From an uncultured Anaerolineales bacterium (GTDB lineage Bacteria; Chloroflexota; Anaerolineae; UBA7937; B3-Chlor): a stretch of DNA of 64,000 nucleotides. Under the pieces are notes generated by a model. The model was not told the origin of the DNA. It did not search any database and saw nothing but the letters and a program-made list of their open reading frames with translations. Where the stretch lies: positions 278,351-342,350 of the forward strand of contig CAYSSR010000002.1 in the NCBI GenBank assembly GCA_964433755.1, written 5' to 3'. Every line of letters starts with the position of its first letter. The stretch's first letter is position 1. The position numbers and the translations under genes were made by a program. Shown piece after piece: positions 29,171 to 43,280 of this stretch.

Positions 29171-30346
29171 TCAGCCCTCATACAGAGGTGACATGGCCCG
29201 TAGTCGTTCTATGATGCCAGGGAGGACCTTCAACACCCGGTCCACGTCCTCTTCGGTGTTCTCGTGCCCCAGAGTCAGACGGACGGTGCCTCGCGCCATA
29301 CCTGGCTCCACTCCCATCGCCAACAGCACGTGGGACGGATCGGAGGAGCCAGTCGCGCACGCGGAGCCGCTGGAAGCTGCAATACCCTCCATGTCCAGTC
29401 CTAGCAGTATGCCCTCGCCCTCTACGTGCTCGAAAGCGATGTTGACGTTATTGGGCAGACGATTCTCAGGGTGGCCCATCAAGGCACAGTGGTCCACCTC
29501 GGAAAGCACGCCCTCTATCAGACGGTCTCGAAGCCCCGCCAGCCGCCGCGTTTCTTCGCACCTCCACCCCTCAACCAGCTTCAATGCGGTCGCCAGTCCC
29601 ACAATCTCGGCCACGTTCTCCGTGCCTGAGCGGCGGCCGCTCTCGTGCCCGCCGCCCGTCTGGCACGGCAGCAGGTCCACACCCTCTCGCACGTACAACA
29701 CCCCCACCCCTTTCGGCGCGTAGAACTTGTGGCCCGAGAGGCTGAGGAGGTCAACGTTCAACTCGTCTACATCCAGGCTCAGAGAGCCCGCGGCTTGTAC
29801 CGCATCCGTGTGGAAAGGGATACCGTGGCTACGAGCGATCCTTCCTATCTCAGAGATCGGCTCGACCGTGCCCATCTCGTTGTTCGCGTACATAACACTG
29901 ATCAGAATGGTGGTATCGGTGATCGCCCGCTCCACGTCCGCCGGATCTACCTGTCCATACTGATCCACGGGCAGATAGGTGACCTCAAAGCCGAACTGTC
30001 TCTCCATTTGCTCCAGTGTGTGGCTCACGGCGTGGTGCTCGATGGATGAAGTAATGATGTGATCGCCCCGGCGCCGGTTCTGCCACGCCACACCTCTGAG
30101 GGCCAGATTGTCGCTTTCCGTCCCACAACTGGTGAAGACTATCTCTCGAGGGCTACAGCAAAGCATCCCGGCCACGTCCGCGCGTGCCTGCTCCAACGCC
30201 TGGTGTGCCTCCCGCCCCAGACTGTGCAGGCTGGAGGCGTTGCCATAGCGCTCACCGAAGTAGGGAAGCATGGCCTCCACCACTTGGGGGTGCACAGACG
30301 TCGTCGCGGCGTGGTCGAGATACAGCACTCTCCTCTCATCCATCAT
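29171..30346 (-). CDS. nifS: Cysteine desulfurase NifS/IscS
   Basis: Aminotransferase class V with the SGHK PLP-Lys and the SSGSACAT catalytic Cys loop. Confidence 0.9.
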   Translation of the reverse strand: MMDERRVLYLDHAATTSVHPQVVEAMLPYFGERYGNASSLHSLGREAHQALEQARADVAGMLCCSPREIVFTSCGTESDNLALRGVAWQNRRRGDHIITSSIEHHAVSHTLEQMERQFGFEVTYLPVDQYGQVDPADVERAITDTTILISVMYANNEMGTVEPISEIGRIARSHGIPFHTDAVQAAGSLSLDVDELNVDLLSLSGHKFYAPKGVGVLYVREGVDLLPCQTGGGHESGRRSGTENVAEIVGLATALKLVEGWRCEETRRLAGLRDRLIEGVLSEVDHCALMGHPENRLPNNVNIAFEHVEGEGILLGLDMEGIAASSGSACATGSSDPSHVLLAMGVEPGMARGTVRLTLGHENTEEDVDRVLKVLPGIIERLRAMSPLYEG

Positions 30347-30396
30347 CGTTCCGCTTCTCCCAGGCTACGAGCCTGCTCCACGAACCTGTGTCTGCC

Positions 30397-30825
30397 TCAC
30401 CTGCCTGTGGCGACAGGCTCTATCAAATCCTCTAGCGTGGTGGAATCGAGCACCTCGACGATCCCATCGTGCATCTTCCTCCACACATCCCTGGCCGCAC
30501 AGATGCCCTGCCGGCCGCACGATTCCTCGGTTCTCTCGTGAGGAATACACTTCAGGGGCATGATGTACCCCTCTTCCAGCGCCCTCACCACGTCACCGAC
30601 CGTGATCTGGCGCGGGGCGCGACAAAGCTCGTAGCCGCCACGCGCGCCCCGAGTGCTCTCCACCAGGTTCGCTTCCTTCAGCAACGGGATGATCTGTTCC
30701 AGATAGCCCAAGGAGACGCCCTGGGCCTCAGCCACGTCGCCCAGCGACATGGGGCCCTGGCCGTGGCGCCTGCCAAGCTCGATCATCGCTCTGAGACCGT
30801 ACTGTTCTCTGGCAGATAGCTTCAT
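30397..30825 (-). CDS. iscR: Rrf2 family transcriptional regulator (IscR-like, with C-terminal Cys cluster)
   Basis: MKLSAREQYGLRAMIELG helix-turn-helix, with C-terminal cysteines for [Fe-S] binding. Confidence 0.8.
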   Translation of the reverse strand: MKLSAREQYGLRAMIELGRRHGQGPMSLGDVAEAQGVSLGYLEQIIPLLKEANLVESTRGARGGYELCRAPRQITVGDVVRALEEGYIMPLKCIPHERTEESCGRQGICAARDVWRKMHDGIVEVLDSTTLEDLIEPVATGR

Positions 30826-31049: not shown

Positions 31050-32357
31050 CTACCCTGTTACGAAGGGTACGAAGGTCCTAAGATCCAGACCACCAGTGGT
31101 AAGGACGAATCGGGCGGTCACCGTTTTGTCGGAGTCCACGATGACACTTATCGACTCGCTGTCGCCAGCTACGTCACCATCCCATCCAGCGAACTCGTAG
31201 CCGTCCACGGGTACCGCAGTAAGCATCACCTCGGTGCCCGACTCACACCCGTCCACCACGCAGGCCAGGGGCTCGGAGAGGATGGCGCCGCCACCTGTGG
31301 GTGCTACGCTGGGGTAGAGGTGGTAGGAGGGCAAAGGTACCTCGACGATGGGAACGTAGGCGTAGTCGTCGATCCCACACTCACCGTACGCTATCTTGAA
31401 CCAACCGTTCTCGCCCCAACCTCTGCCCCAGCTATTCTTCGCGATCCAGTAGCCCTCCTCATCGTCGTAACCAACCACGGTGACAGCGTGGCCACCTTCC
31501 AGCGTGCCTGTGGTGTGCCGGTAGACGCCTCCCTCGTAAGTCCAGAAATCCGAGTAGACCAGCATGGTCGCCTCGAAAGGTCCACTATCAGCCAGTGCCT
31601 GCTTCATATCGTCCGAGTTGGTCAGCCCGACCCACTCAGTGAGGCGTGTGACCCGATTCTGCCAGTCGGGACACAACCTGCACGTCTGATCAGACGTGTC
31701 GTAGGGGTAGCATGGCTCCTCAGTGATGCCTACGTCACGAGCGGCATTCAGCGCTGCAAAGGGGGTCCAGCCGGTAGCGCAGCTACTGCCTGAGTTACAG
31801 AAGAACAGGTGCGCCTCCGAAAGGTCGGGGTTGAGAGCGGGACTGCCCAATGCAATCTCCAGACGGGACTCGATGGCCCCGACGGTGGCGAAGGCCACGC
31901 AGGATCCGCAGGCACTCTGGTTCCGGATGCCAGTCGTCCAGTTTTCACCATCCACGTCCCGCCAATCGAGCCTGGCCGGATAGCCGTAGCTGGCAGAGAG
32001 CTTCACGCCAGCCTCGCTGGCCTGCTCCTTCTCCCACTCCGTCACCTCCATCGGCACACCCAGCAGCCCAACCAGGTCTTCAGGACCCGATTCCAGCAGC
32101 GGGGGCTCGGTGGAGGGCAAAGAGTCTTCGTCGCCGAGTGAGATGGTCTGGGTGACGGTGGTGCCGACAGTATCCGTCGGGGTAGACGAGGCGAAGAGGG
32201 TAGTGGTAATGGTTTCCGGTTGCCAGAGCGTATCCTCGGGGCACCCGGTCGGCTCAGGCGACTCCGTCTGCGCCATAGCAGGAACCTGCAAGACCACACT
32301 GACGCCTGTAGCCAGCAGAACCGCCACGACTAGAACTAGAGTTGACTTGATTCTCAC
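31050..32357 (-). CDS. Secreted papain-family (C1A) cysteine protease with C-terminal InlB-B-repeat-like domain
   Basis: Signal peptide. Catalytic Cys in CGSCVAF, and His/Asn in GGHAV...NSWG. The C-terminal repeat is GYEFAGWDGD. Confidence 0.85.
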   Translation of the reverse strand: MRIKSTLVLVVAVLLATGVSVVLQVPAMAQTESPEPTGCPEDTLWQPETITTTLFASSTPTDTVGTTVTQTISLGDEDSLPSTEPPLLESGPEDLVGLLGVPMEVTEWEKEQASEAGVKLSASYGYPARLDWRDVDGENWTTGIRNQSACGSCVAFATVGAIESRLEIALGSPALNPDLSEAHLFFCNSGSSCATGWTPFAALNAARDVGITEEPCYPYDTSDQTCRLCPDWQNRVTRLTEWVGLTNSDDMKQALADSGPFEATMLVYSDFWTYEGGVYRHTTGTLEGGHAVTVVGYDDEEGYWIAKNSWGRGWGENGWFKIAYGECGIDDYAYVPIVEVPLPSYHLYPSVAPTGGGAILSEPLACVVDGCESGTEVMLTAVPVDGYEFAGWDGDVAGDSESISVIVDSDKTVTARFVLTTGGLDLRTFVPFVTG

Positions 32358-32391
32358 TTTCGCCCCACCCCCGTCGAGACAATGGTGGGGA

Positions 32392-32440
32392 CGAAAGAAA
32401 ACGCGCTCTCAACCACGGTGCCAAAGGGAAAAAGAGCGCG
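32392..32440 (-). terminator. Intrinsic terminator/attenuator in the leader between riboswitch A and the protease gene (CGCGCUCU...AGAGCGCG + UUUUCUUUCG)
   Basis: A perfect 8-bp stem with a 23-nt loop and a U tract on the minus strand. Confidence 0.5.
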
Positions 32441-32454
32441 CTGAATAGCTAGCT

Positions 32455-32550
32455 TTTCTTCGGAGGCAACCCGGCCACCATAGTTCGCTCAGAACCGTAG
32501 GCCCGTGGCTTTGCGTCCCCACCTTTCGATGGGTTTGCCTTTATCACCGA
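32455..32550 (-). promoter_or_regulatory. c-di-GMP-I (GEMM-I) riboswitch aptamer A, in the leader of the C1 protease gene
   Basis: Minus-strand RNA reads GGUGAUAAAGGCAAACCCAUCGAAAGGUGGGGACGCAAAGCCACGGGCCUACGG...GGCCGGGUUGCCUCCGAAG. It matches the GEMM-I core (GGCAAACC, GAAA-capped P2, GGGACGCAAAGCC, a long P3, and P1 closure). Confidence 0.8.
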
Positions 32551-32618
32551 CTTACTGTTAAGGTCTTGCCTGTGAACTGATCCGCGTCAGCACCCCGTAA
32601 AGGACGCCGACTGGTATC

Positions 32619-33896
32619 TCACGCTTGAGCTCTCGTCGTCAACGGCACGTGGCTCTGCTGCAGCGATCCACTGGTCACGGAGAGGATCACCTGCACATCG
32701 ACAGACATGCCCCCGGCGTCTACGGTTATCGTCCCTGCGTGAATCCCTTCAGCGGTCGGGAAGCCCTCCAAGTAGACCACCACGGTCGATTGGCCGGATC
32801 CGGCAGCCTGGCTCAGCTTGATCCAGTCTTGATCGGCGCTGGCAGTCCAGTTGGCCCAGGTGTCGATGTGCACCCCGTTCCCGGCCGGCACCGTGGGCGC
32901 AGAACCCTGCATAGAGAGAAACACCAACGAATCGGGCGACACCCTCAAAGGCAGATCGAGGTAGATGCTGTCGCGGCTCTCGAGCACGGTCGAGCCCCGC
33001 CTGATCTGAGCAAGCACCGTAGCGGGTGATCCATCGCCGGTGGACAACGTCCATGCCTTGTCAGAGGAGAAGGGTTCCCAGGCCGACCAAGTCTCGCCTG
33101 CGTTGCGGAACCTCATCTCCGTCGCCCAGTCCTGGCCATACACGTACAGGTCAACGGAGAGGCTGGCCGTTGACCACGCCTCTCCGTCGACCACCACAGG
33201 GTAGAAGGCATTTCCTTGTACGCCGTTCCGAGCCCCAAGATCAAGGGTCCAGTAGTGGTAGTAATACGCGCTGCCAGAGAAGGCATAGCCCCCTCCCGCC
33301 TCGCGGAAATCCACACTCAGCATGTTGTCCCTGTGACCGGGGCTATTCATCCAGGCATCGACCACCGCCCCAGACGACGTGTACCCCGCTGCGACGTTCT
33401 CGCCAAGATACGTATGGTTCAGGTACCCTGCATTCTCGATCCTGGTGACCCAGTCTGGTTCGCCAGAGCACGTGTGGGCGAAGCAGTCGTGGTTGGCCAT
33501 CCAGTCGCTGTGAAACTGCGCAGAGTCCATCAACTCTGAGGCCGCCTTCAGGGGCGGCAGCCCCCGACTCAGCCGTCTCACGTTTGTGAGACGGACCAGT
33601 GCGTGCCCCTGAGGCTCGTCGGGCGCCCCTGCACCCGCACTGACACTGACCAAACCTTCGTCCGAGTCACTGAGAGTGGATTCCGTGATGGAAGTGGTTC
33701 CGTCGGCGCCAATGAACCCGATGGCAACCGGGTTCCCGTCTCCATCGGCGCCTCCCACCGTGGCCAAGCTGGCCGACGCCAGCAAGAGCAGCAGGAGCGT
33801 ACAGGCAACAATACGATTCCTGGAGACTTCTCTACCTATCCGCAACATCCCGTTACTCGATAACATCTTGCGTTCGCTACGCTGTGCCAATCCCAT
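32619..33896 (-). CDS. Secreted CAP/SCP (YkwD-like) domain protein with C-terminal Ig-like/beta-sandwich domains
   Basis: Signal peptide (the true start is probably an internal ATG, MLRIG...). The SPGHRDNMLSVDFREAGGGYA motif is CAP-type. Confidence 0.75.
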   Translation of the reverse strand: MGLAQRSERKMLSSNGMLRIGREVSRNRIVACTLLLLLLASASLATVGGADGDGNPVAIGFIGADGTTSITESTLSDSDEGLVSVSAGAGAPDEPQGHALVRLTNVRRLSRGLPPLKAASELMDSAQFHSDWMANHDCFAHTCSGEPDWVTRIENAGYLNHTYLGENVAAGYTSSGAVVDAWMNSPGHRDNMLSVDFREAGGGYAFSGSAYYYHYWTLDLGARNGVQGNAFYPVVVDGEAWSTASLSVDLYVYGQDWATEMRFRNAGETWSAWEPFSSDKAWTLSTGDGSPATVLAQIRRGSTVLESRDSIYLDLPLRVSPDSLVFLSMQGSAPTVPAGNGVHIDTWANWTASADQDWIKLSQAAGSGQSTVVVYLEGFPTAEGIHAGTITVDAGGMSVDVQVILSVTSGSLQQSHVPLTTRAQA

Positions 33897-33906
33897 TAAC
33901 TAAGAA

Positions 33907-33942
33907 GCGCCCTTCGCCACATGCCGTTGGTTCGAAGAGCGC
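33907..33942 (-). terminator. Hairpin (GCGCUCUUCG/CGAAGGGCGC) in the leader between riboswitch B and the CAP-protein gene. Candidate attenuator.
   Basis: 10-bp stem with one G-U pair, followed by a weak U tract that overlaps the annotated start region. Confidence 0.35.
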
Positions 33943-33959
33943 TGCGTCTATGCTAGTTG

Positions 33960-34055
33960 TCCTTCGGAGGCAACCCGGCGACCGTAGTTCGACTGAACCG
34001 TAGGCCCGTGGCTTTGCGTCCCCACCTTTCGATGGGTTTGCCTTTGTCACCGCTC
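33960..34055 (-). promoter_or_regulatory. c-di-GMP-I (GEMM-I) riboswitch aptamer B, in the leader of the CAP-protein gene
   Basis: ~93% identical to aptamer A over ~90 nt, with the same GEMM-I core. Confidence 0.8.
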
Positions 34056-34088
34056 GATTGTCAAGGTAAGACCCTCAATGCCATTCCA

Positions 34089-34117
34089 AGTATACAGCAA
34101 GCAGCGCAGACAATCAA
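34089..34117 (-). promoter_or_regulatory. Sigma70-type promoter (minus) TTGATT-17-TATACT driving riboswitch B
   Basis: Reverse complement reads ccaTTGATTgtctgcgctgcttgctgTATACTtgg. Confidence 0.5.
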
Positions 34118-34240
34118 TGGTAAGATGGTACCATACCCAGCAACAACGAGCGGGGGGCTAGGCCGTCCTCTGGAACTTTGGCCTTATGCGAAGCCGCCGT
34201 CAGGGCGCTCTTGTCCAAAGCATGGACGTGCCTATGCGCC

Positions 34241-34269
34241 TTGACACCACCCGGACGGTTGTCTATAAT
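34241..34269 (+). promoter_or_regulatory. Consensus sigma70 promoter TTGACA-17-TATAAT driving riboswitch C and the PEP-CTERM operon
   Basis: The sequence ccTTGACAccacccggacggttgtcTATAATtc is a perfect consensus. Confidence 0.7.
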
Positions 34270-34299: not shown

Positions 34300-34395
34300 C
34301 AGGGTAACGAAAAGGCAACCTTCCTGCGAGGGAAGGAACGCAAAGCCTCGGATCTAGGCTGAACGCGCTCTGACGCCCAGATAGCCGAGCTGCCG
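34300..34395 (+). promoter_or_regulatory. GEMM-I-class (c-di-GMP-I or related cyclic dinucleotide) riboswitch aptamer C
   Basis: AAAAGGCAACC-UUCCUGCGAGGGAAGG (GNRA-capped P2)-AACGCAAAGCC-long P3-GCUGCC. It deviates from consensus at GCAA(A)CC and GGAACGC, so the call is less certain than A and B. Confidence 0.55.
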
Positions 34396-34425
34396 AACTA
34401 CTCAGGCGGCTCGGCGTTTTTTGTT
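34384..34425 (+). terminator. Intrinsic terminator (GCCGAGCUGCC...GGCGGCUCGGC + GUUUUUUGUU) forming the expression platform of riboswitch C
   Basis: 11-bp stem plus a U tract. The 5' arm is shared with the aptamer P3/P1 3' side, which implies a ligand-dependent antitermination (ON) switch. Confidence 0.7.
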
Positions 34426-34549: not shown

Positions 34550-36130
34550 ATGCTTACTGGAAATGGTCGCATCTCATCGTGGGCGCGCGGCGTCAGTGTT
34601 GTCACTGTCGCCCTTCTTATGCTGATCGCACCCGGGTTGGCGCAGGCTCAGGGACCCGGGGCATGGGAGGAATACTCCGGCAACCCCATCATCGATCCCC
34701 CGGAAGAGGACGCCTACTACCCCAGCGTGCTCTACGACTCTTCCCCGACACCCTTTAGTGGCCACGGGGAAGCAAGCGCCTTCAAGATGTGGCACGACAA
34801 CGGTCTCCAGTACAGAGTCTCCGACGACGGTCTGTCGTGGACCAAAGTAGGAGACATGGATGACGGCACCATCACCGGCCTGCCCGCTGGAGAGGTGCGC
34901 CATCCTCTCGTGGAGTACTACGCGGCTGGGTTCACTGGCAGGAACGATGGCGACAACCCCAGCTCCGCTACCATGTACTATCGTCTCTGGTTCTGGCACC
35001 TGGGCCAGGACCTGTACAGTGTAGCTGCCATCCACTACGCCGAGTCGCCCGATGGAAAGGCCTGGTACAACGTGCAGCCGCTCCAGAACGGCACAGTGCC
35101 CATCGTCACGGGCACCTGGCCTGACTGGAATAGAGGATCGTACGGACCTTGCGATGTCCTCTTCTTTCCGGGAGCCAGCAACTCCGGAACTGACTGGACC
35201 TTCTGGATGTACTATGACGGCACCACCGGCGGAGACGAAGCCATAGGTCTCGGCTTCTCGGCCGATGGCGTGACCTGGACCGGGTACGATCCCGGCGGAG
35301 ACGGCCAGGCTGATGCCGTGATGAACGGCACCTACGTCTCCGGAGACTGGGACTACAACTACCTATCGCGCGCCACCATCTGGAGAGAGGCACCCGGCGA
35401 CTACCGCATGTGGTACAGCGCCGGCGTCGACACCATGAACCATGGCCTCGGATACGCCACCTCCTCCGACGGACTGAGCTGGACACGAGACCCCAACAAC
35501 CCCATCTTCTACAAGGACGATACCGGCTATCCTGGGTATCCCTGGCGCGAGAACCGTAGCTACACCCCCGTGGTGTTGCGTGCCGGGAACCTCTGGTTCA
35601 TGTGGTATTCCGGCGAGAACGGCGGGGGCAAGTGCATCGGTGTAGCCTATTCCAGCGCAGGACTTCCGGAGCAACTCCTGGAGATCGAGAAGAGCGCCCA
35701 TCCAGCGCAGATCGCTGTGGGTGAGAAGACTCTGTTCACCATCACCGTGACCAACGCCTCGATGGACGCCGCCGATGACGTAGTGGTCACGGACGAGATC
35801 GACGCGGGCCTGGAGATCGTGAACGTCCAGACCTCGAAGGGATTGATCTCCACGGCTGGGCAACAAGTGACGGTGGACGTGGGGTCCATGGCCCCAGATG
35901 AGACCGTGGTGATCGAGATTCGGGTGCTGGCGCTGGAGATCGGACAAATCGAGAACGTAGCGGTCGTGACCACGCCGCGAGTCGTCGCCGACGCTGGAGC
36001 GACGCTCGACGTGGTCAGCGCAGCAGCCGTGGAAGAGGAGTTCGTGCCCGAGCCGGGAAGCCTGCTTCTGATGGGCAGCGGCCTGCTCACCATGGCTGGA
36101 TACGCCATCAAGCGAGGTCGAAGACACTAG
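34550..36130 (+). CDS. Secreted BNR/Asp-box beta-propeller (glycoside-hydrolase-like) + DUF11 domain protein with PEP-CTERM sorting signal
   Basis: Signal peptide. Repeated SDDGLSWT / SADGVTWT / SSDGLSWT Asp-boxes and a DUF11 region (TITVTNASMDAADDVVVTDEID). The C-terminus VPEPGSLLLMGSGLLTMAGYAIKRGRRH is PEP-CTERM. Confidence 0.8.
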   Translation: MLTGNGRISSWARGVSVVTVALLMLIAPGLAQAQGPGAWEEYSGNPIIDPPEEDAYYPSVLYDSSPTPFSGHGEASAFKMWHDNGLQYRVSDDGLSWTKVGDMDDGTITGLPAGEVRHPLVEYYAAGFTGRNDGDNPSSATMYYRLWFWHLGQDLYSVAAIHYAESPDGKAWYNVQPLQNGTVPIVTGTWPDWNRGSYGPCDVLFFPGASNSGTDWTFWMYYDGTTGGDEAIGLGFSADGVTWTGYDPGGDGQADAVMNGTYVSGDWDYNYLSRATIWREAPGDYRMWYSAGVDTMNHGLGYATSSDGLSWTRDPNNPIFYKDDTGYPGYPWRENRSYTPVVLRAGNLWFMWYSGENGGGKCIGVAYSSAGLPEQLLEIEKSAHPAQIAVGEKTLFTITVTNASMDAADDVVVTDEIDAGLEIVNVQTSKGLISTAGQQVTVDVGSMAPDETVVIEIRVLALEIGQIENVAVVTTPRVVADAGATLDVVSAAAVEEEFVPEPGSLLLMGSGLLTMAGYAIKRGRRH

Positions 36131-36184: not shown

Positions 36185-37756
36185 GTGAGTCGAGGCCATT
36201 TCACACTGATTGCTGTGTTGCTCCCCACACTTCTGCTCGGGCTGGCCGCGTCGGGCGCCGCCTTCGCCGACGGTACGACGCATTACGTGAGTCCCGGACA
36301 AGACATCCAGGGGATCATCGACACCGCCAGTCCAGGGGACACTATCCAGTTCGCCCCAGGCACCTACACGCTGGCCTCGACCCTCTGCGTGAGCAAACCG
36401 CTTACTCTCACCTCTGCCGACCCCTACGCAGAAGTCAAACCCCTTCTCGACGGTGGAGGGAGTCTGGAGACCATCGTCTACGTGAACTCGGACAGCGTGG
36501 TCATCGATGGGCTGGAGATCGCCAATGGCACCGGCGATCTCGTCCTCCAGAGCGGGGCGTACGCAGAAACCGTGGTCCGGAACAACACTGTCCACGATTC
36601 GACCGGAGACGAGGGCATCCAGTTGAAGCAGTGCACGGATTGCGTTGTCGAATTCAACCTCATCTACGACGTCGCTCAGGATGGCATCTGCATAGCGGAC
36701 GCCTCGCACGACTGCCTGATCAGCAACAACGAGATCTACAACTCGTACAGCGAGAACGCCGTCATCTACGTCTACGATTCATACAACATCACTGTGGAAA
36801 GCAACTACATCCACGATACGCAGGGAGCCAACGGCATCACGTTCTACAAGAACTACGGCGCCACCCACACCATCACCAACAACCTCATCGTCAGCAACGA
36901 GTGGCGGGGTGGCAAGCACTGCTACGACGAAGCCGACGGAAATGCGGTGAGCATCTACAAGCCCCGGACGTCCAGCACCTACGTGGTCACTCACAATACC
37001 ATCGATGACAACACGCCGGCCAACGGTTGCGCCCAGCCGGGAAACGCCATCTACGTCAACGATGGCTCCGGGGTGGGCTTCAGCACCGACGTGCAGAGCA
37101 ACATCGTGACCAATCACAGCGGCTACGGCATCCGCACCTACTGTGAGGCTCTGGTGGGCTATGGCTGCAACGACCTGTGGCAGAATGCTCTCGGCGCCAC
37201 GGACGGCAACCCCGTAGATGCCGGCGGCAACATCTCCGCTGATCCCCTCTTCGATACCGACCACTCCTTGCTGGAAGGAAGCCCCGCCATCGACATGGCC
37301 TGCGACGGGAAAGACATGGGGGTCGACTTCTCGTTGTGGGGATACGAGCCCGCACTCCAGATCACGAAGGCCGTGAATCCGCTCTCGGTGGAAGAGGGAG
37401 CGGGGGCGACGTTCACCATCACTGTAACGAACGACGGCCCTGGGGCGGCACAGGACGTGGTGCTCACCGACGAGATAGACGCAGACCTTCAGATCTCCTC
37501 CGTGGAGACTACTCAGGGCACCCCACTCCAGGTAGGCCAGACGATCACTGTCGATATCGGGATGCTCGAGCGTAACGAAACCGTGACCGTCACCATCGCC
37601 GTGACAGCAACCGAGATGGGCACCCAGGTCAACGTCGCCCATCTGCGCTCCCTCACAGTCGAGGGGATGGATTCCAACAGTGTGCCGCTGGAGGTAGGGC
37701 CGCCCGCCCAACCACCACCCAACTTCTACTTTCCGCTCGTGCTCTGTGCTTTCTGA
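36185..37756 (+). CDS. Secreted right-handed parallel beta-helix (pectate-lyase-fold, PbH1 repeats) + DUF11 domain protein
   Basis: Signal peptide. Repeated NNT/NNE...I.N/D beta-helix rungs and a DUF11 region (TFTITVTNDGPGAAQDVVLTDEID). It has a hydrophobic C-terminus but no PEP motif. Confidence 0.7.
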   Translation: MSRGHFTLIAVLLPTLLLGLAASGAAFADGTTHYVSPGQDIQGIIDTASPGDTIQFAPGTYTLASTLCVSKPLTLTSADPYAEVKPLLDGGGSLETIVYVNSDSVVIDGLEIANGTGDLVLQSGAYAETVVRNNTVHDSTGDEGIQLKQCTDCVVEFNLIYDVAQDGICIADASHDCLISNNEIYNSYSENAVIYVYDSYNITVESNYIHDTQGANGITFYKNYGATHTITNNLIVSNEWRGGKHCYDEADGNAVSIYKPRTSSTYVVTHNTIDDNTPANGCAQPGNAIYVNDGSGVGFSTDVQSNIVTNHSGYGIRTYCEALVGYGCNDLWQNALGATDGNPVDAGGNISADPLFDTDHSLLEGSPAIDMACDGKDMGVDFSLWGYEPALQITKAVNPLSVEEGAGATFTITVTNDGPGAAQDVVLTDEIDADLQISSVETTQGTPLQVGQTITVDIGMLERNETVTVTIAVTATEMGTQVNVAHLRSLTVEGMDSNSVPLEVGPPAQPPPNFYFPLVLCAF

Positions 37757-43158: not shown

Positions 43159-43177
43159 GAAACAAGCTCTTCAGCAA

Positions 43178-43280
43178 CCTTCCCTACGCTGGCATTACCC
43201 ATGTCAGGTTCGTGGGGTCGAGGGCATTGCGGGCCCTCCTCTCAGCCTGGCTCACCAAGCTCCCCTGGGTGCTTCCATTC
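43178..43280 (-). promoter_or_regulatory. TPP (thiamine pyrophosphate) riboswitch
   Basis: Minus-strand RNA reads ...GGGGAGC...GCUGAGAGG...ACCCCACGAACCUGACAUGGGUAAUGCCAGCGUAGGGAAGG. It matches the conserved TPP aptamer blocks. Confidence 0.85.

What the first reader, a model, noticed from the sequence alone, without database searches (positions are those of the whole stretch)
32455..32550. Riboswitch A: GEMM-I aptamer followed by an intrinsic terminator before the cysteine protease gene
On the minus strand the RNA shows GGCAAACC, a GAAA-capped P2, GGGACGCAAAGCC, a long P3 and P1 closure. Forty nt downstream lies a perfect 8-bp stem plus U tract (32392-32440), then the GTG start of the protease. 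This looks like a transcription-attenuation type c-di-GMP switch.
Basis: seen in the sequence. Interest (0 to 1): 0.7.

Follow-up and report, generated by a model that had tools for sequence, protein, structure and literature searches.

The report
c-di-GMP riboswitch before a secreted protease
This is a genuine, textbook-class c-di-GMP-sensing RNA switch with a transcription terminator in front of a secreted cysteine protease gene of an uncultured Anaerolineales bacterium; it most likely shuts the gene off when c-di-GMP is high, so it is a good but ordinary find.

Summary
Rfam's c-di-GMP-I model (RF01051) matches 32462-32549 (-) end to end at 83.9 bits (cut-off 35). G20, A47 and C92 equivalents are present, so the ligand is c-di-GMP, not c-AMP-GMP. 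Twenty-one nt downstream lies a GC-rich hairpin T plus a U tract (32392-32440), then a GTG-initiated papain-family protease with a signal peptide.

The aptamer plus T platform recurs in 32 distinct Chloroflexota/Anaerolineales sequences. T is 86% paired, with 5 compensatory pairs. T's 5' arm and loop are complementary to the 5' half of the aptamer's second stem (mean -28.6 vs about -19 kcal/mol in controls). T does not overlap the aptamer. This is the layout of an OFF switch: ligand, then terminator.

- A conserved -19 to -32 kcal/mol hairpin (32357-32397) buries the Shine-Dalgarno region up to the start codon. Its 5' arm is a perfect 10-nt complement of the aptamer.
- Riboswitch A has no promoter of its own. 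It is the second, serial copy behind riboswitch B and a CAP-domain gene.
- A divergent third copy is built as an ON switch for a DUF11/PEP-CTERM protein.

Verdict: a new member of a known class; moderate-to-low interest.

The parts
32462..32549 (-). c-di-GMP-I (GEMM-I) aptamer, 'riboswitch A'
   Evidence: RF01051 at 83.9 bits, GA 35, full-length match.
32545..32550 (-). P1 5' strand (UCGGUG; G 32545 is the G14 equivalent)
   Evidence: Pairs with 32460-32465. RNAalifold consensus. P1 covaries across the family: CGGUG/CUCCG versus GGGAUG/CUCCC.
32460..32465 (-). P1 3' strand (CUCCGA; C 32465 is the C93 equivalent)
   Evidence: Numbering from PMC3764141.
32539..32539 (-). G20 equivalent (ligand G-alpha contact). 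G indicates c-di-GMP rather than c-AMP-GMP.
   Evidence: Model position 11 in the cmscan alignment. G versus A rule from PMC9481103.
32512..32512 (-). A47 equivalent, the first A of the AAA linker
32466..32466 (-). C92 equivalent (Watson-Crick partner of ligand G-beta)
32441..32459 (-). Linker between P1 and the terminator hairpin
   Evidence: Read from sequence. The terminator does not overlap the aptamer.
32402..32440 (-). Terminator hairpin T: 5' arm 32440-32433, 23-nt loop 32432-32410, 3' arm 32409-32402
   Evidence: -17.7 kcal/mol, z = -2.9. Family model R1 scores it at 78.7 bits. Covariation; the C:G to U:A swap is.
32392..32401 (-). U tract UUUUCUUUCG
   Evidence: U-rich tails follow T in nearly all family members, including those without hairpin H2.
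32486..32510 (-). Aptamer strand of the proposed antiterminator Y (AGCCACGGGCC ... GAGCG: 5' half of the second stem plus its loop)
   Evidence: Part of the MFE of the 158-nt and 206-nt transcripts. Duplex -29.0 kcal/mol; 0/100 dinucleotide shuffles reach it.
32411..32438 (-). T-side strand of antiterminator Y (CGCUC 32438-32434 and GGCACCGUGGUU 32422-32411)
32357..32397 (-). Hairpin H2, which buries the Shine-Dalgarno-like G run (32372-32363) and the first base of the start codon
   Evidence: -23.9 kcal/mol, z = -3.8. Orthologs range from -19 to -32 kcal/mol. 95% of cells paired in 14 leaders. Part of the RNAalifold consensus.
32384..32393 (-). Anti-SD strand CGUCCCCACC (5' arm of H2)
   Evidence: Near-invariant in 14 leaders while the H2 3' arm varies.
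32514..32523 (-). Aptamer segment GGUGGGGACG, a perfect complement of the anti-SD strand (proposed helix Z')
   Evidence: 140/140 cells paired. It is the MFE partner in 11/11 transcripts truncated before the SD. z = -2.6 to -5.4.
31050..32357 (-). Regulated gene: secreted papain-family (C1A) cysteine protease with a C-terminal InlB B-repeat-like domain; GTG start at 32357-32355
   Evidence: Pfam. Translation. Q147, C153, H290 and N308 are invariant in 24 homologs.
32556..32568 (-). Conserved leader motif CAAGACCUUAACA just 5' of P1
   Evidence: ACCUU[GAU]ACA lies in front of almost every family member. Role unknown.
33966..34052 (-). Sister riboswitch B (aptamer), the first in the same transcription unit
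   Evidence: RF01051 at 82.9 bits. Its own T hairpin lies in 33897-33976.
32619..33896 (-). CAP/SCP-domain gene between riboswitches B and A
   Evidence: Pfam CAP, E = 1.4e-19.
34089..34117 (-). Only recognisable promoter of the unit (TTGATT-17-TATACT), upstream of B
   Evidence: The same promoter context is conserved upstream of 'first' riboswitches and absent upstream of A-type copies.

Best explanation
Riboswitch A is a canonical class-I c-di-GMP riboswitch that works by transcription attenuation, most likely as an OFF switch.

High c-di-GMP: the ligand is held at the three-helix junction by G 32539, A 32512 and C 32466. This locks P1 and the second stem. The downstream GC-rich hairpin T (32440-32402) then forms in front of its U tract (32401-32392), and RNA polymerase terminates about 35 nt before the protease start codon.

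Low c-di-GMP: the 5' half of the aptamer's second stem and its loop (32510-32486) pair with the 5' arm and loop of T (32438-32411). This antiterminator, Y, lets the polymerase read into the gene for a secreted papain-family protease.

Riboswitch A has no promoter of its own. It sits 70 nt behind the stop codon of a CAP-domain gene that is itself preceded by the near-identical riboswitch B. Protease mRNA therefore has to pass two c-di-GMP checkpoints in series.

Shown: aptamer identity and binding-site nucleotides; conservation and covariation of T; conserved complementarity of Y; gene identity; synteny.

Inferred: ligand binding; that T terminates in this organism; the OFF direction; co-transcription with the upstream gene.
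For: Aptamer:
- 83.9 bits over the full model, with G20/A47/C92 equivalents in place.
- GAAA tetraloop, AAA linker and covarying P1.

Conservation:
- 12 of 13 full-length protease orthologs with enough upstream sequence (52-93% aa identity) carry the aptamer about 180 nt before the start.

Terminator T:
- The T plus U tract is found in 39 hits (32 distinct). 86.4% of cells are paired against 29-68% when slid.
- 5 pairs and 21 cells show changes on both sides; 0/500 shuffles reach the observed values.
- The RNAalifold consensus of 11 leaders is aptamer + T + H2.

Antiterminator Y:
- The Y duplex averages -28.6 kcal/mol. Controls: -18.6 (reversed T), -19.7 (dinucleotide shuffles), -14.3 and -17.9 (other aptamer segments).
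- 24/31 sequences have at most 5/100 shuffles reaching the native value.
- The loop of the second stem mimics T's 3' arm and changes with it: AGAGCG with CGCUCU/AGAGCG, versus GAGAAC with GUUCUC/GAGAAC.

Energetics: for the window's 158-nt transcript, the Y state is -55.4 kcal/mol and aptamer + T is -49.2 kcal/mol.

Architecture: T is separated from the aptamer by a linker. In contrast, the neighbouring riboswitch C has its terminator 5' arm inside the aptamer, which is the ON layout described in PMC1950547.

Precedent: all functional C. difficile class-I switches are terminator OFF switches, one of them on the protease gene zmpI (PMC6366702).
Against: - There is no experimental evidence. Ligand binding and termination are not testable here.
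- T has a 23-nt loop, outside the 3-8 nt of typical intrinsic terminators, and the simple scan did not call it.
- The aptamer side of Y is invariant, so Y is supported by conserved complementarity and one co-changing block, not by classical two-sided covariation.
- About half of family members have T, rather than Y, in their unconstrained MFE.
- The U tract also serves as part of H2's 5' arm, so its conservation in the protease leaders is not independent evidence. U tracts in H2-less relatives are.
- Class-I riboswitches can be ON, OFF or unresponsive in different species (PMC6366702, PMC11218506).
Confidence: 0.72

Rival explanations
1. Two-level switch. Besides termination, the leader controls translation.

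The anti-SD strand CGUCCCCACC (32393-32384) can pair in two ways. It can pair with the Shine-Dalgarno region, forming H2, which gives translation OFF; this is favoured when the aptamer is ligand-locked. Or it can pair with the aptamer's GGUGGGGACG (32523-32514), forming helix Z', which gives SD free; this is possible only when the aptamer is ligand-free and captures the strand co-transcriptionally.

This extends the best explanation rather than excluding it.
For: - H2 is conserved in all 14 protease leaders (-19 to -32 kcal/mol; 95% of cells paired).
- The anti-SD strand is a perfect 10-nt complement of the aptamer in every leader: 140/140 cells paired against 44-70% when slid.
- The anti-SD strand stays fixed while the H2 3' arm varies (GGUGGGGCG, GGGGGCG, GGAGGGGACG, GUGGGGACG, AUGGGGACG). 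Its ACC is kept even where H2 does not use it.
- Transcripts cut before the SD fold with Z' in 11/11 cases.
- The duplex has z = -2.6 to -5.4 against shuffled anti-SD.
- Precedent for transcription-translation dual control in a class-I switch: Bc1 (PMC11218506).
Against: - At full length the H2 state is more stable than the Z' state by 0.2-12.8 kcal/mol, and by 11.8 for the window itself. Z' would therefore have to be a kinetic state.
- There are no compensatory changes, because the aptamer side is invariant.
- The P2 hairpin that Z' must invade is a fast-folding GAAA-capped stem.
- A G-rich SD and a G-rich aptamer strand could share a complement partly by composition.
- The feature is absent from riboswitch B and from other family members.
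Confidence: 0.3
2. ON switch: c-di-GMP binding prevents T from forming, for example by freeing the linker to act as an antiterminator. Under this reading the protease would be made at high c-di-GMP.
For: - ON behaviour is common in class I (B. thuringiensis Bc2; many delta-proteobacterial examples; PMC6366702, PMC1950547).
- The window's linker GAAGAAAAGC can pair with GCUCUUUUUC of T.
Against: - T's arms do not overlap the aptamer, unlike riboswitch C 2 kb away.
- Linker:T pairing is no better than shuffled controls across the family (mean z = -0.18).
- Aptamer:T pairing, by contrast, is strongly enriched.
Confidence: 0.1
3. Structurally intact but functionally silent element: it binds c-di-GMP (or not) without changing expression. 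Several C. difficile copies and B. thuringiensis Bc1 behave this way.
For: 5 of 16 C. difficile c-di-GMP riboswitches are non-functional, and Bc1 does not respond in vivo (PMC6366702, PMC11218506). One 57%-identical ortholog (L005) has no riboswitch.
Against: The aptamer, T, H2 and their mutual complementarities are far more conserved than the protein they precede (52-93% aa identity), across at least 7 lineages. This argues for purifying selection on a working switch.
Confidence: 0.08

Closest known systems
C. difficile class-I c-di-GMP riboswitches (Cd1/Cdi-1-3 before flgB; the class-I switch before zmpI/PPEP-1)
   Same: Both have a GEMM-I aptamer followed by an intrinsic terminator and act as OFF switches on ligand binding. 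One C. difficile copy controls a secreted protease while adhesin-like surface proteins nearby are switched ON by c-di-GMP (PMC6366702). The same opposing logic is predicted here: A and B OFF, C ON before a DUF11/PEP-CTERM protein.
   Different: The phylum differs (Chloroflexota/Anaerolineales rather than Firmicutes). The protease is a papain-family C1A enzyme, not a zinc metalloprotease. The ON partner here is also class I, not class II. This leader has an extra SD-occluding hairpin. Nothing here has been tested experimentally.
Vibrio cholerae Vc2 (structural reference for c-di-GMP-I)
   Same: G20, A47 and C92 equivalents, the C44/G83 equivalents (C 32515, G 32475), the GAAA tetraloop with a receptor-like CCUACG/UAUGG motif, and the AAA J2/3 linker are all present.
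   Different: The V. cholerae class-I switches do not act through transcription termination (PMC6366702). This one has a terminator platform.
B. thuringiensis Bc1 (class I with a long expression platform and transcription-translation dual regulation)
   Same: Both have a long platform with more than one stable hairpin between aptamer and start codon, and possible control at both transcription and translation (PMC11218506).
   Different: Bc1 has two terminators and an incoherent output. Here there is one terminator plus a non-terminator SD-sequestering hairpin, and the predicted outputs are coherent (both OFF with ligand).
Tandem c-di-GMP-I riboswitches (347 doublets and 12 triplets catalogued; B. 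thuringiensis triplet)
   Same: Complete riboswitches of the same class are arranged in series on one transcript, which is expected to sharpen the dose response (PMC9481103). Relatives of this locus have B- and A-type copies 228-356 nt apart with no gene between them (L059, L025, L002).
   Different: In the window a 1.3-kb CAP-domain gene lies between the two copies. The proximal gene therefore sees one checkpoint and the distal protease gene sees two.

Membership tests
c-di-GMP-I riboswitch (Rfam RF01051, GEMM-I) | Covariance-model score at or above the curated gathering score (35 bits), full-length | tested here: met
   83.9 bits, model 1-87/87, E = 4.6e-15. It is the best-scoring member of clan CL00126.
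c-di-GMP-I riboswitch (Rfam RF01051, GEMM-I) | First hairpin with a 2-bp + 6-bp stem, conserved internal loop and GNRA tetraloop, followed by the AAA linker | tested here: met
   GC/GC pairs, CCCAUC-GAAA-GGUGGG, GAC internal loop, then AAA. Features as described in PMC1950547.
c-di-GMP-I riboswitch (Rfam RF01051, GEMM-I) | Ligand-contacting nucleotides G20, A47, C92 | tested here: met
   G 32539, A 32512 and C 32466, placed by the model alignment. Numbering is anchored by C22-G45, G14-C93 and the conserved-position list of PMC3764141.
c-di-GMP-I riboswitch (Rfam RF01051, GEMM-I) | Interhelical C44-G83 pair and a GAAA tetraloop receptor in the second stem | tested here: met
   C 32515 lies in the GAC internal loop and bulged G 32475 lies in the second stem. 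The receptor-like CCUACG/UAUGG has one change from the 11-nt CCUAAG/UAUGG motif; most relatives have CCUAAG.
c-di-GMP-I riboswitch (Rfam RF01051, GEMM-I) | Closing helix P1 and a position in the 5' leader of a gene | tested here: met
   P1 is 32550-32545 with 32465-32460 and covaries in relatives. The aptamer is 104 nt upstream of the protease start, on the same strand.
c-di-GMP-I riboswitch (Rfam RF01051, GEMM-I) | Selective binding of c-di-GMP | not testable with these tools
   Needs in-line probing, ITC or equilibrium dialysis.
c-AMP-GMP riboswitch (GEMM-Ib) | A instead of G at position 20 | tested here: not met
   Position 20 is G in the window and in 30 of the 31 distinct relatives listed; L012_786 reads GACAAA, with the A at the following position. 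G/A rule: PMC9481103.
Intrinsic (Rho-independent) terminator as expression platform | GC-rich stem immediately followed by a U tract | tested here: met
   8 Watson-Crick pairs (6 G-C) extendable to 10-11, then UUUUCUUUC. Conserved with compensatory changes.
Intrinsic (Rho-independent) terminator as expression platform | Short loop (typically 3-8 nt) | tested here: not met
   The loop is 23 nt in the window and 15-27 nt in relatives. The consensus scan therefore missed it. The loop carries the antiterminator complement, which may explain its size.
Intrinsic (Rho-independent) terminator as expression platform | Ligand-dependent termination in vitro or in vivo | not testable with these tools
   Needs single-round transcription or Term-seq.
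OFF-type riboswitch logic | An alternative helix that uses aptamer nucleotides and excludes the terminator | tested here: met
   Helix Y: -29.0 kcal/mol in the window, 0/100 shuffles reach it. Family mean -28.6 against about -19 kcal/mol. It is part of the MFE.
Tandem (serial) riboswitches of one class | Two complete riboswitches on one transcript | tested here: inconclusive
   B and A are on the same strand with only one promoter-like site, upstream of B. The conserved promoter context is present before 'first' copies and absent before A-type copies. Adjacent doublets occur in relatives. Co-transcription itself was not shown.

The most novel reading that the evidence does not exclude
The leader is a three-state, two-level c-di-GMP switch. 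A single aptamer strand, GGUGGGGACG, has two roles.
- In the ligand-bound fold it forms P2.
- In the ligand-free fold it captures the anti-Shine-Dalgarno strand as it emerges from the polymerase.

c-di-GMP would then coherently turn off both transcription (through terminator T) and translation (through hairpin H2).

This operates inside a conserved Anaerolineales module in which two serial OFF switches (CAP-domain protein, C1 protease) face a divergent ON switch (DUF11/PEP-CTERM surface protein).
Probability: 0.3. Interest if true: 0.5.

Novelty: new member of a known kind. Interest (0 to 1): 0.3.

Why it matters
It extends well-documented c-di-GMP riboswitch control to uncultured Anaerolineales (Chloroflexota), a filamentous, biofilm- and granule-forming group. 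I found no paper describing c-di-GMP riboswitches in Chloroflexi, although the one literature search on this was loose (3 of 4 terms required).

It also predicts a simple regulatory picture. At high c-di-GMP, a PEP-CTERM/DUF11 surface protein is switched on, while a secreted papain-like protease and a CAP-domain protein are switched off. This parallels the adhesin/ZmpI logic of C. difficile.

The family found here has near-invariant aptamers, a covarying terminator and a well-defined antiterminator. It offers a clean natural set for studying how expression platforms are wired to GEMM-I aptamers, and a candidate for coherent transcription-plus-translation control.

It does not reveal a new class of RNA or a new ligand.

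Tried and rejected
1. Linker:terminator pairing ('X', GAAGAAAAGC with GCUCUUUUUC) as a general antiterminator. It looked attractive in the window's MFE and in a few relatives (GAUAGA:UCUAUC, GGACAG:CUGUCC). Over 31 sequences, however, the duplex is no better than shuffled controls (mean z = -0.18). Not adopted.

2. Pairing of the aptamer's 5' end (CGGUGAUAAAGG) with the T loop (CCUUUGGCACCG). This appears in nascent-transcript MFEs of the window. It depends on CACCG, which only a few relatives have, so it is treated as subgroup-specific or fortuitous.

3. Correlated change of the P1 5' strand (GGUG/GAUG) with the P2 3' strand (GGUGG/GAUGG) as evidence for a 5' alternative hairpin. The correlation is not strict.

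4. The simple terminator scan found nothing at this site because of its loop limit. T was established by comparison instead.

5. An own promoter for riboswitch A. None was found by the scan. The conserved ACCTT[GAT]ACA upstream resembles a -35 box, but it lies between the promoter and P1 in 'first' copies, so it is transcribed.

6. Riboswitches before more distant C1-protease homologs. There are none in 19 of 20 loci scanned with Rfam, so the association is confined to this ortholog group and its close paralogs.

7. Two-sided covariation for H2 and for Z'. None is available, because one strand is invariant.

Full report
**Observation.** Read on the minus strand, 32549-32462 is CGGUGAUAAAGGCAAACCCAUCGAAAGGUGGGGACGCAAAGCCACGGGCCUACGGUUCUGAGCGAACUAUGGUGGCCGGGUUGCCUCC. 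Rfam's cmscan of the whole window reports c-di-GMP-I (RF01051) at exactly these coordinates. The match covers all 87 model positions at 83.9 bits (gathering score 35) with E = 4.6e-15. A more permissive local scan gives the same result and no better family of the clan. Two further copies lie nearby: B at 33966-34052 (-, 82.9 bits) and C at 34304-34397 (+, 52 bits).

**Ligand pocket.** The literature fixes the Vc2 numbering through the C22-G45 pair, the G14-C93 pair at the top of P1, J1-2 G20, J2-3 A47-A49 and J3-1 C92 (PMC3764141; PMC5888326; PMC4744006). Mapped through the model alignment:
- G20 = 32539
- C44 = 32515
- A47 = 32512
- G83 = 32475
- C92 = 32466

All carry the canonical base. A G at position 20 marks c-di-GMP rather than c-AMP-GMP selectivity (PMC9481103). 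The GAAA tetraloop, the AAA linker and a receptor-like CCUACG/UAUGG motif are present. P1 (32550-32545 with 32465-32460) covaries in relatives.

**Downstream gene and organism.** The ORF 32357-31050 starts with GTG; orthologs have ATG or GTG at the same position. It encodes a Sec signal peptide, a Thr/Ser/Pro-rich stretch, a Peptidase_C1 domain (E = 2.6e-49) and an InlB B-repeat-like domain. The papain catalytic residues Gln, Cys, His and Asn are invariant in 24 homologs. Homologs and the loci that encode them come from uncultured Anaerolineales, Anaerolineae and Chloroflexota MAGs and from sediment-type metagenomes.

**Expression platform, hairpin T.** After a linker, CGCGCUCU (32440-32433) pairs with AGAGCGCG (32409-32402) across a 23-nt loop. 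UUUUCUUUCG (32401-32392) follows. Alone it folds at -17.7 kcal/mol (z = -2.9). The simple terminator scan missed it because it accepts only loops of 3-8 nt.

Comparison settles the question. A pattern search of the protease loci found 31 distinct aptamers, all followed by the same platform: about 22 nt of linker, a hairpin of consensus GCGCGCUCUUCG-AACCGAGGGCNNNGUGGC-GAAGAGCGCGC, and a U tract. A covariance model of the platform recovers 39 instances, 32 of them distinct. On that alignment:
- 86.4% of cells pair, against 29-68% when the partner is slid.
- 5 of 12 pairs and 21 cells change on both sides.
- No shuffle in 500 reaches the observed pairing or covariation score.

The alignment was fitted to the structure, which the tool warns inflates these figures. 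An independent RNAalifold run on 11 protease leaders also returns T with a C:G to U:A swap. Three more lineages use GCGUGCUCUUC/GAAGAGUGCGC. U-rich tails follow T even where the next hairpin (H2) is absent. So the U tract is not merely part of H2.

**Direction of the switch.** T does not overlap the aptamer. Instead, T's 5' arm and loop are complementary, antiparallel, to the 5' half of the aptamer's second stem and its loop. In the window:
- AGCCACGGGCC (32510-32500) pairs with GGCACCGUGGUU (32422-32411).
- GAGCG (32490-32486) pairs with CGCUC (32438-32434).

This helix, Y, is part of the MFE of the 158-nt and 206-nt transcripts. Across 31 sequences the duplex averages -28.6 kcal/mol. Controls give -18.6 (reversed T), -19.7 (dinucleotide shuffles), and -14.3 and -17.9 (other aptamer segments). 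In 24 of 31 sequences at most 5 of 100 shuffles reach the native value; for the window, 0 of 100 do.

The loop of the second stem also mimics T's 3' arm and changes with it. It reads AGAGCG where T is CGCUCU/AGAGCG, and GAGAAC where T is GUUCUC/GAGAAC. Y excludes both the aptamer fold and T.

For the window, the Y state is -55.4 kcal/mol and aptamer + T is -49.2 kcal/mol. Tight ligand binding could plausibly overcome a gap of this size (my inference, not measured). About half of the relatives have T and half have Y in their MFE, as expected for a balanced switch.

This is OFF logic: ligand, then aptamer, then T, then termination. Riboswitch C, 2 kb away, shows the contrasting ON design described by Weinberg et al. 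(PMC1950547). Its terminator 5' arm GCCGAGCUGCC (34384-34394) is the aptamer's own 3' strand. An ON reading for A would need the linker as antiterminator, but linker:T pairing is not enriched (mean z = -0.18).

CUUUCG-U-CCCCACC ... GGUGGGG-CGAAAG (32397-32357) folds at -23.9 kcal/mol (z = -3.8). It buries the G-rich Shine-Dalgarno region (32372-32363) and ends on the G of the GTG start. Every ortholog has it, at -19 to -32 kcal/mol, with 95% of cells paired in 14 leaders.

Its 5' arm, CGUCCCCACC (32393-32384), is also a perfect complement of the aptamer's GGUGGGGACG (32523-32514):
- 140 of 140 cells pair, against 44-70% when slid.
- The only two substitutions keep wobble pairs.
- The strand stays fixed while the H2 3' arm varies between lineages.
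- Transcripts truncated before the SD emerges fold with this long-range helix (Z') in 11 of 11 cases.
- The duplex beats shuffled controls (z = -2.6 to -5.4).

At full length, however, H2 wins by 0.2-12.8 kcal/mol, and by 11.8 for the window. There is no two-sided covariation either. I therefore treat a translation-level layer as a plausible extension (about 0.3), not as shown. In that model the ligand-free aptamer captures the anti-SD strand, while the ligand-bound aptamer leaves it to close H2. Bc1 of B. thuringiensis is a precedent for dual control in this class (PMC11218506).

**Operon context.** The only promoter-like site on this strand is TTGATT-17-TATACT at 34117-34089, upstream of B. 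The same context recurs before 'first' riboswitches in more than ten loci: a TAGTAC..ATTGA block, a 17-nt spacer, then TATAAT or TATACT. It is absent before all A-type copies, which instead follow a gene or another riboswitch.

A begins 70 nt after the stop codon of the CAP-domain gene (32619-33896). The order DUF11 (divergent), B, CAP, A, protease, Rrf2, IscS, NifU is kept in other metagenomes. In some relatives the B- and A-type copies are adjacent doublets, or parts of triplets. This fits the high frequency of tandem c-di-GMP-I arrangements (PMC9481103). The protease is therefore probably gated twice by the same signal.

**Comparison and verdict.** The element meets every testable defining feature of RF01051. 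It resembles the terminator-type OFF switches of C. difficile, including the one before the protease gene zmpI, whose adhesin substrates are switched ON by c-di-GMP (PMC6366702). It differs in phylum, in protease family, in the unusually large antiterminator-bearing terminator loop, in the extra SD hairpin and in the serial arrangement across a gene.

It is a new member of a known kind. The interest is modest, and rests mainly on the possible two-level mechanism and the tidy OFF/OFF/ON module.

Noticed in passing
window 34304-34422 (+), gene 34550-36130 (+): Third c-di-GMP-I copy (52 bits) with the opposite wiring. The terminator 5' arm GCCGAGCUGCC (34384-34394) lies inside the aptamer, the 3' arm is at 34405-34415 and the U tract at 34417-34422, so it is predicted to be an ON switch. 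It sits behind a perfect TTGACA-17-TATAAT promoter (34241-34269). It precedes a DUF11 + PEP-CTERM protein, followed by a beta-helix + DUF11 protein (36185-37756).
   Followed up: partly
window 34089-34139 (-): The promoter of riboswitch B carries a direct repeat, TACCAT-CT-TACCAT (34130-34117), overlapping the -35 box. A similar block (TAGTACnATnTTnCnATTGA, N17, TATAAT/TATACT) precedes 'first' riboswitches in more than ten unrelated loci. It could be a regulator binding site or a special promoter class.
   Followed up: partly
window 32556-32568 (-), also 34056-34066 (-): A conserved transcribed motif, (A)AGACCUU[GAU]ACA, lies immediately 5' of P1 in almost every family member. It is complementary to the UAAGGUU strand of the aptamer's second stem. 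Its role is unknown; it may be a folding or anti-aptamer element.
   Followed up: partly
window 32586-32611 (-): A hairpin, GUCGGCGUCC-UUUAC-GGGGUGCUGAC, lies just after the CAP gene stop codon and has no U tract. Relatives L002 and L003 have a similarly placed hairpin (CAGCGCCC...GGGGAGCUG).
   Followed up: no
L007 ~1530-1580, L010, L012, L085 (upstream of the A-type copy): A decayed aptamer remnant (GGGAAGGTGGGGACGCAAACCCACGAGCCCCAGGTTCGGAAGAACTACC) lies between tandem riboswitches. This suggests repeated duplication and decay of riboswitch cassettes.
   Followed up: no
L002/L082 2463-3001: The CAP-domain gene is missing and only its 5' end remains. The B-type and A-type riboswitches therefore lie 356 nt apart as a true tandem pair.
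   Followed up: partly
L005 (Ga0315295_10044147): A full-length protease ortholog (57% identity) with more than 2.5 kb of upstream sequence has neither the aptamer nor the T hairpin. The riboswitch association is therefore not universal.
   Followed up: partly
L014 186-273: The riboswitch before a paralogous protease scores best as the Rfam variant c-di-GMP-I-GGC (67 bits, GA 59). It has a GCAA loop and AAGGGCAAAC. It uses the same T platform.
   Followed up: no
window 43163-43276 (-): TPP riboswitch (RF00059, 61.2 bits, GA 54.3).
   Followed up: no
window 29171-30825 (-): Directly downstream of the protease gene lies an Rrf2-family regulator, a class-V aminotransferase (IscS-like) and, in syntenic loci, NifU. 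This is an isc-type Fe-S cluster operon, apparently unrelated to the riboswitch module.
   Followed up: no
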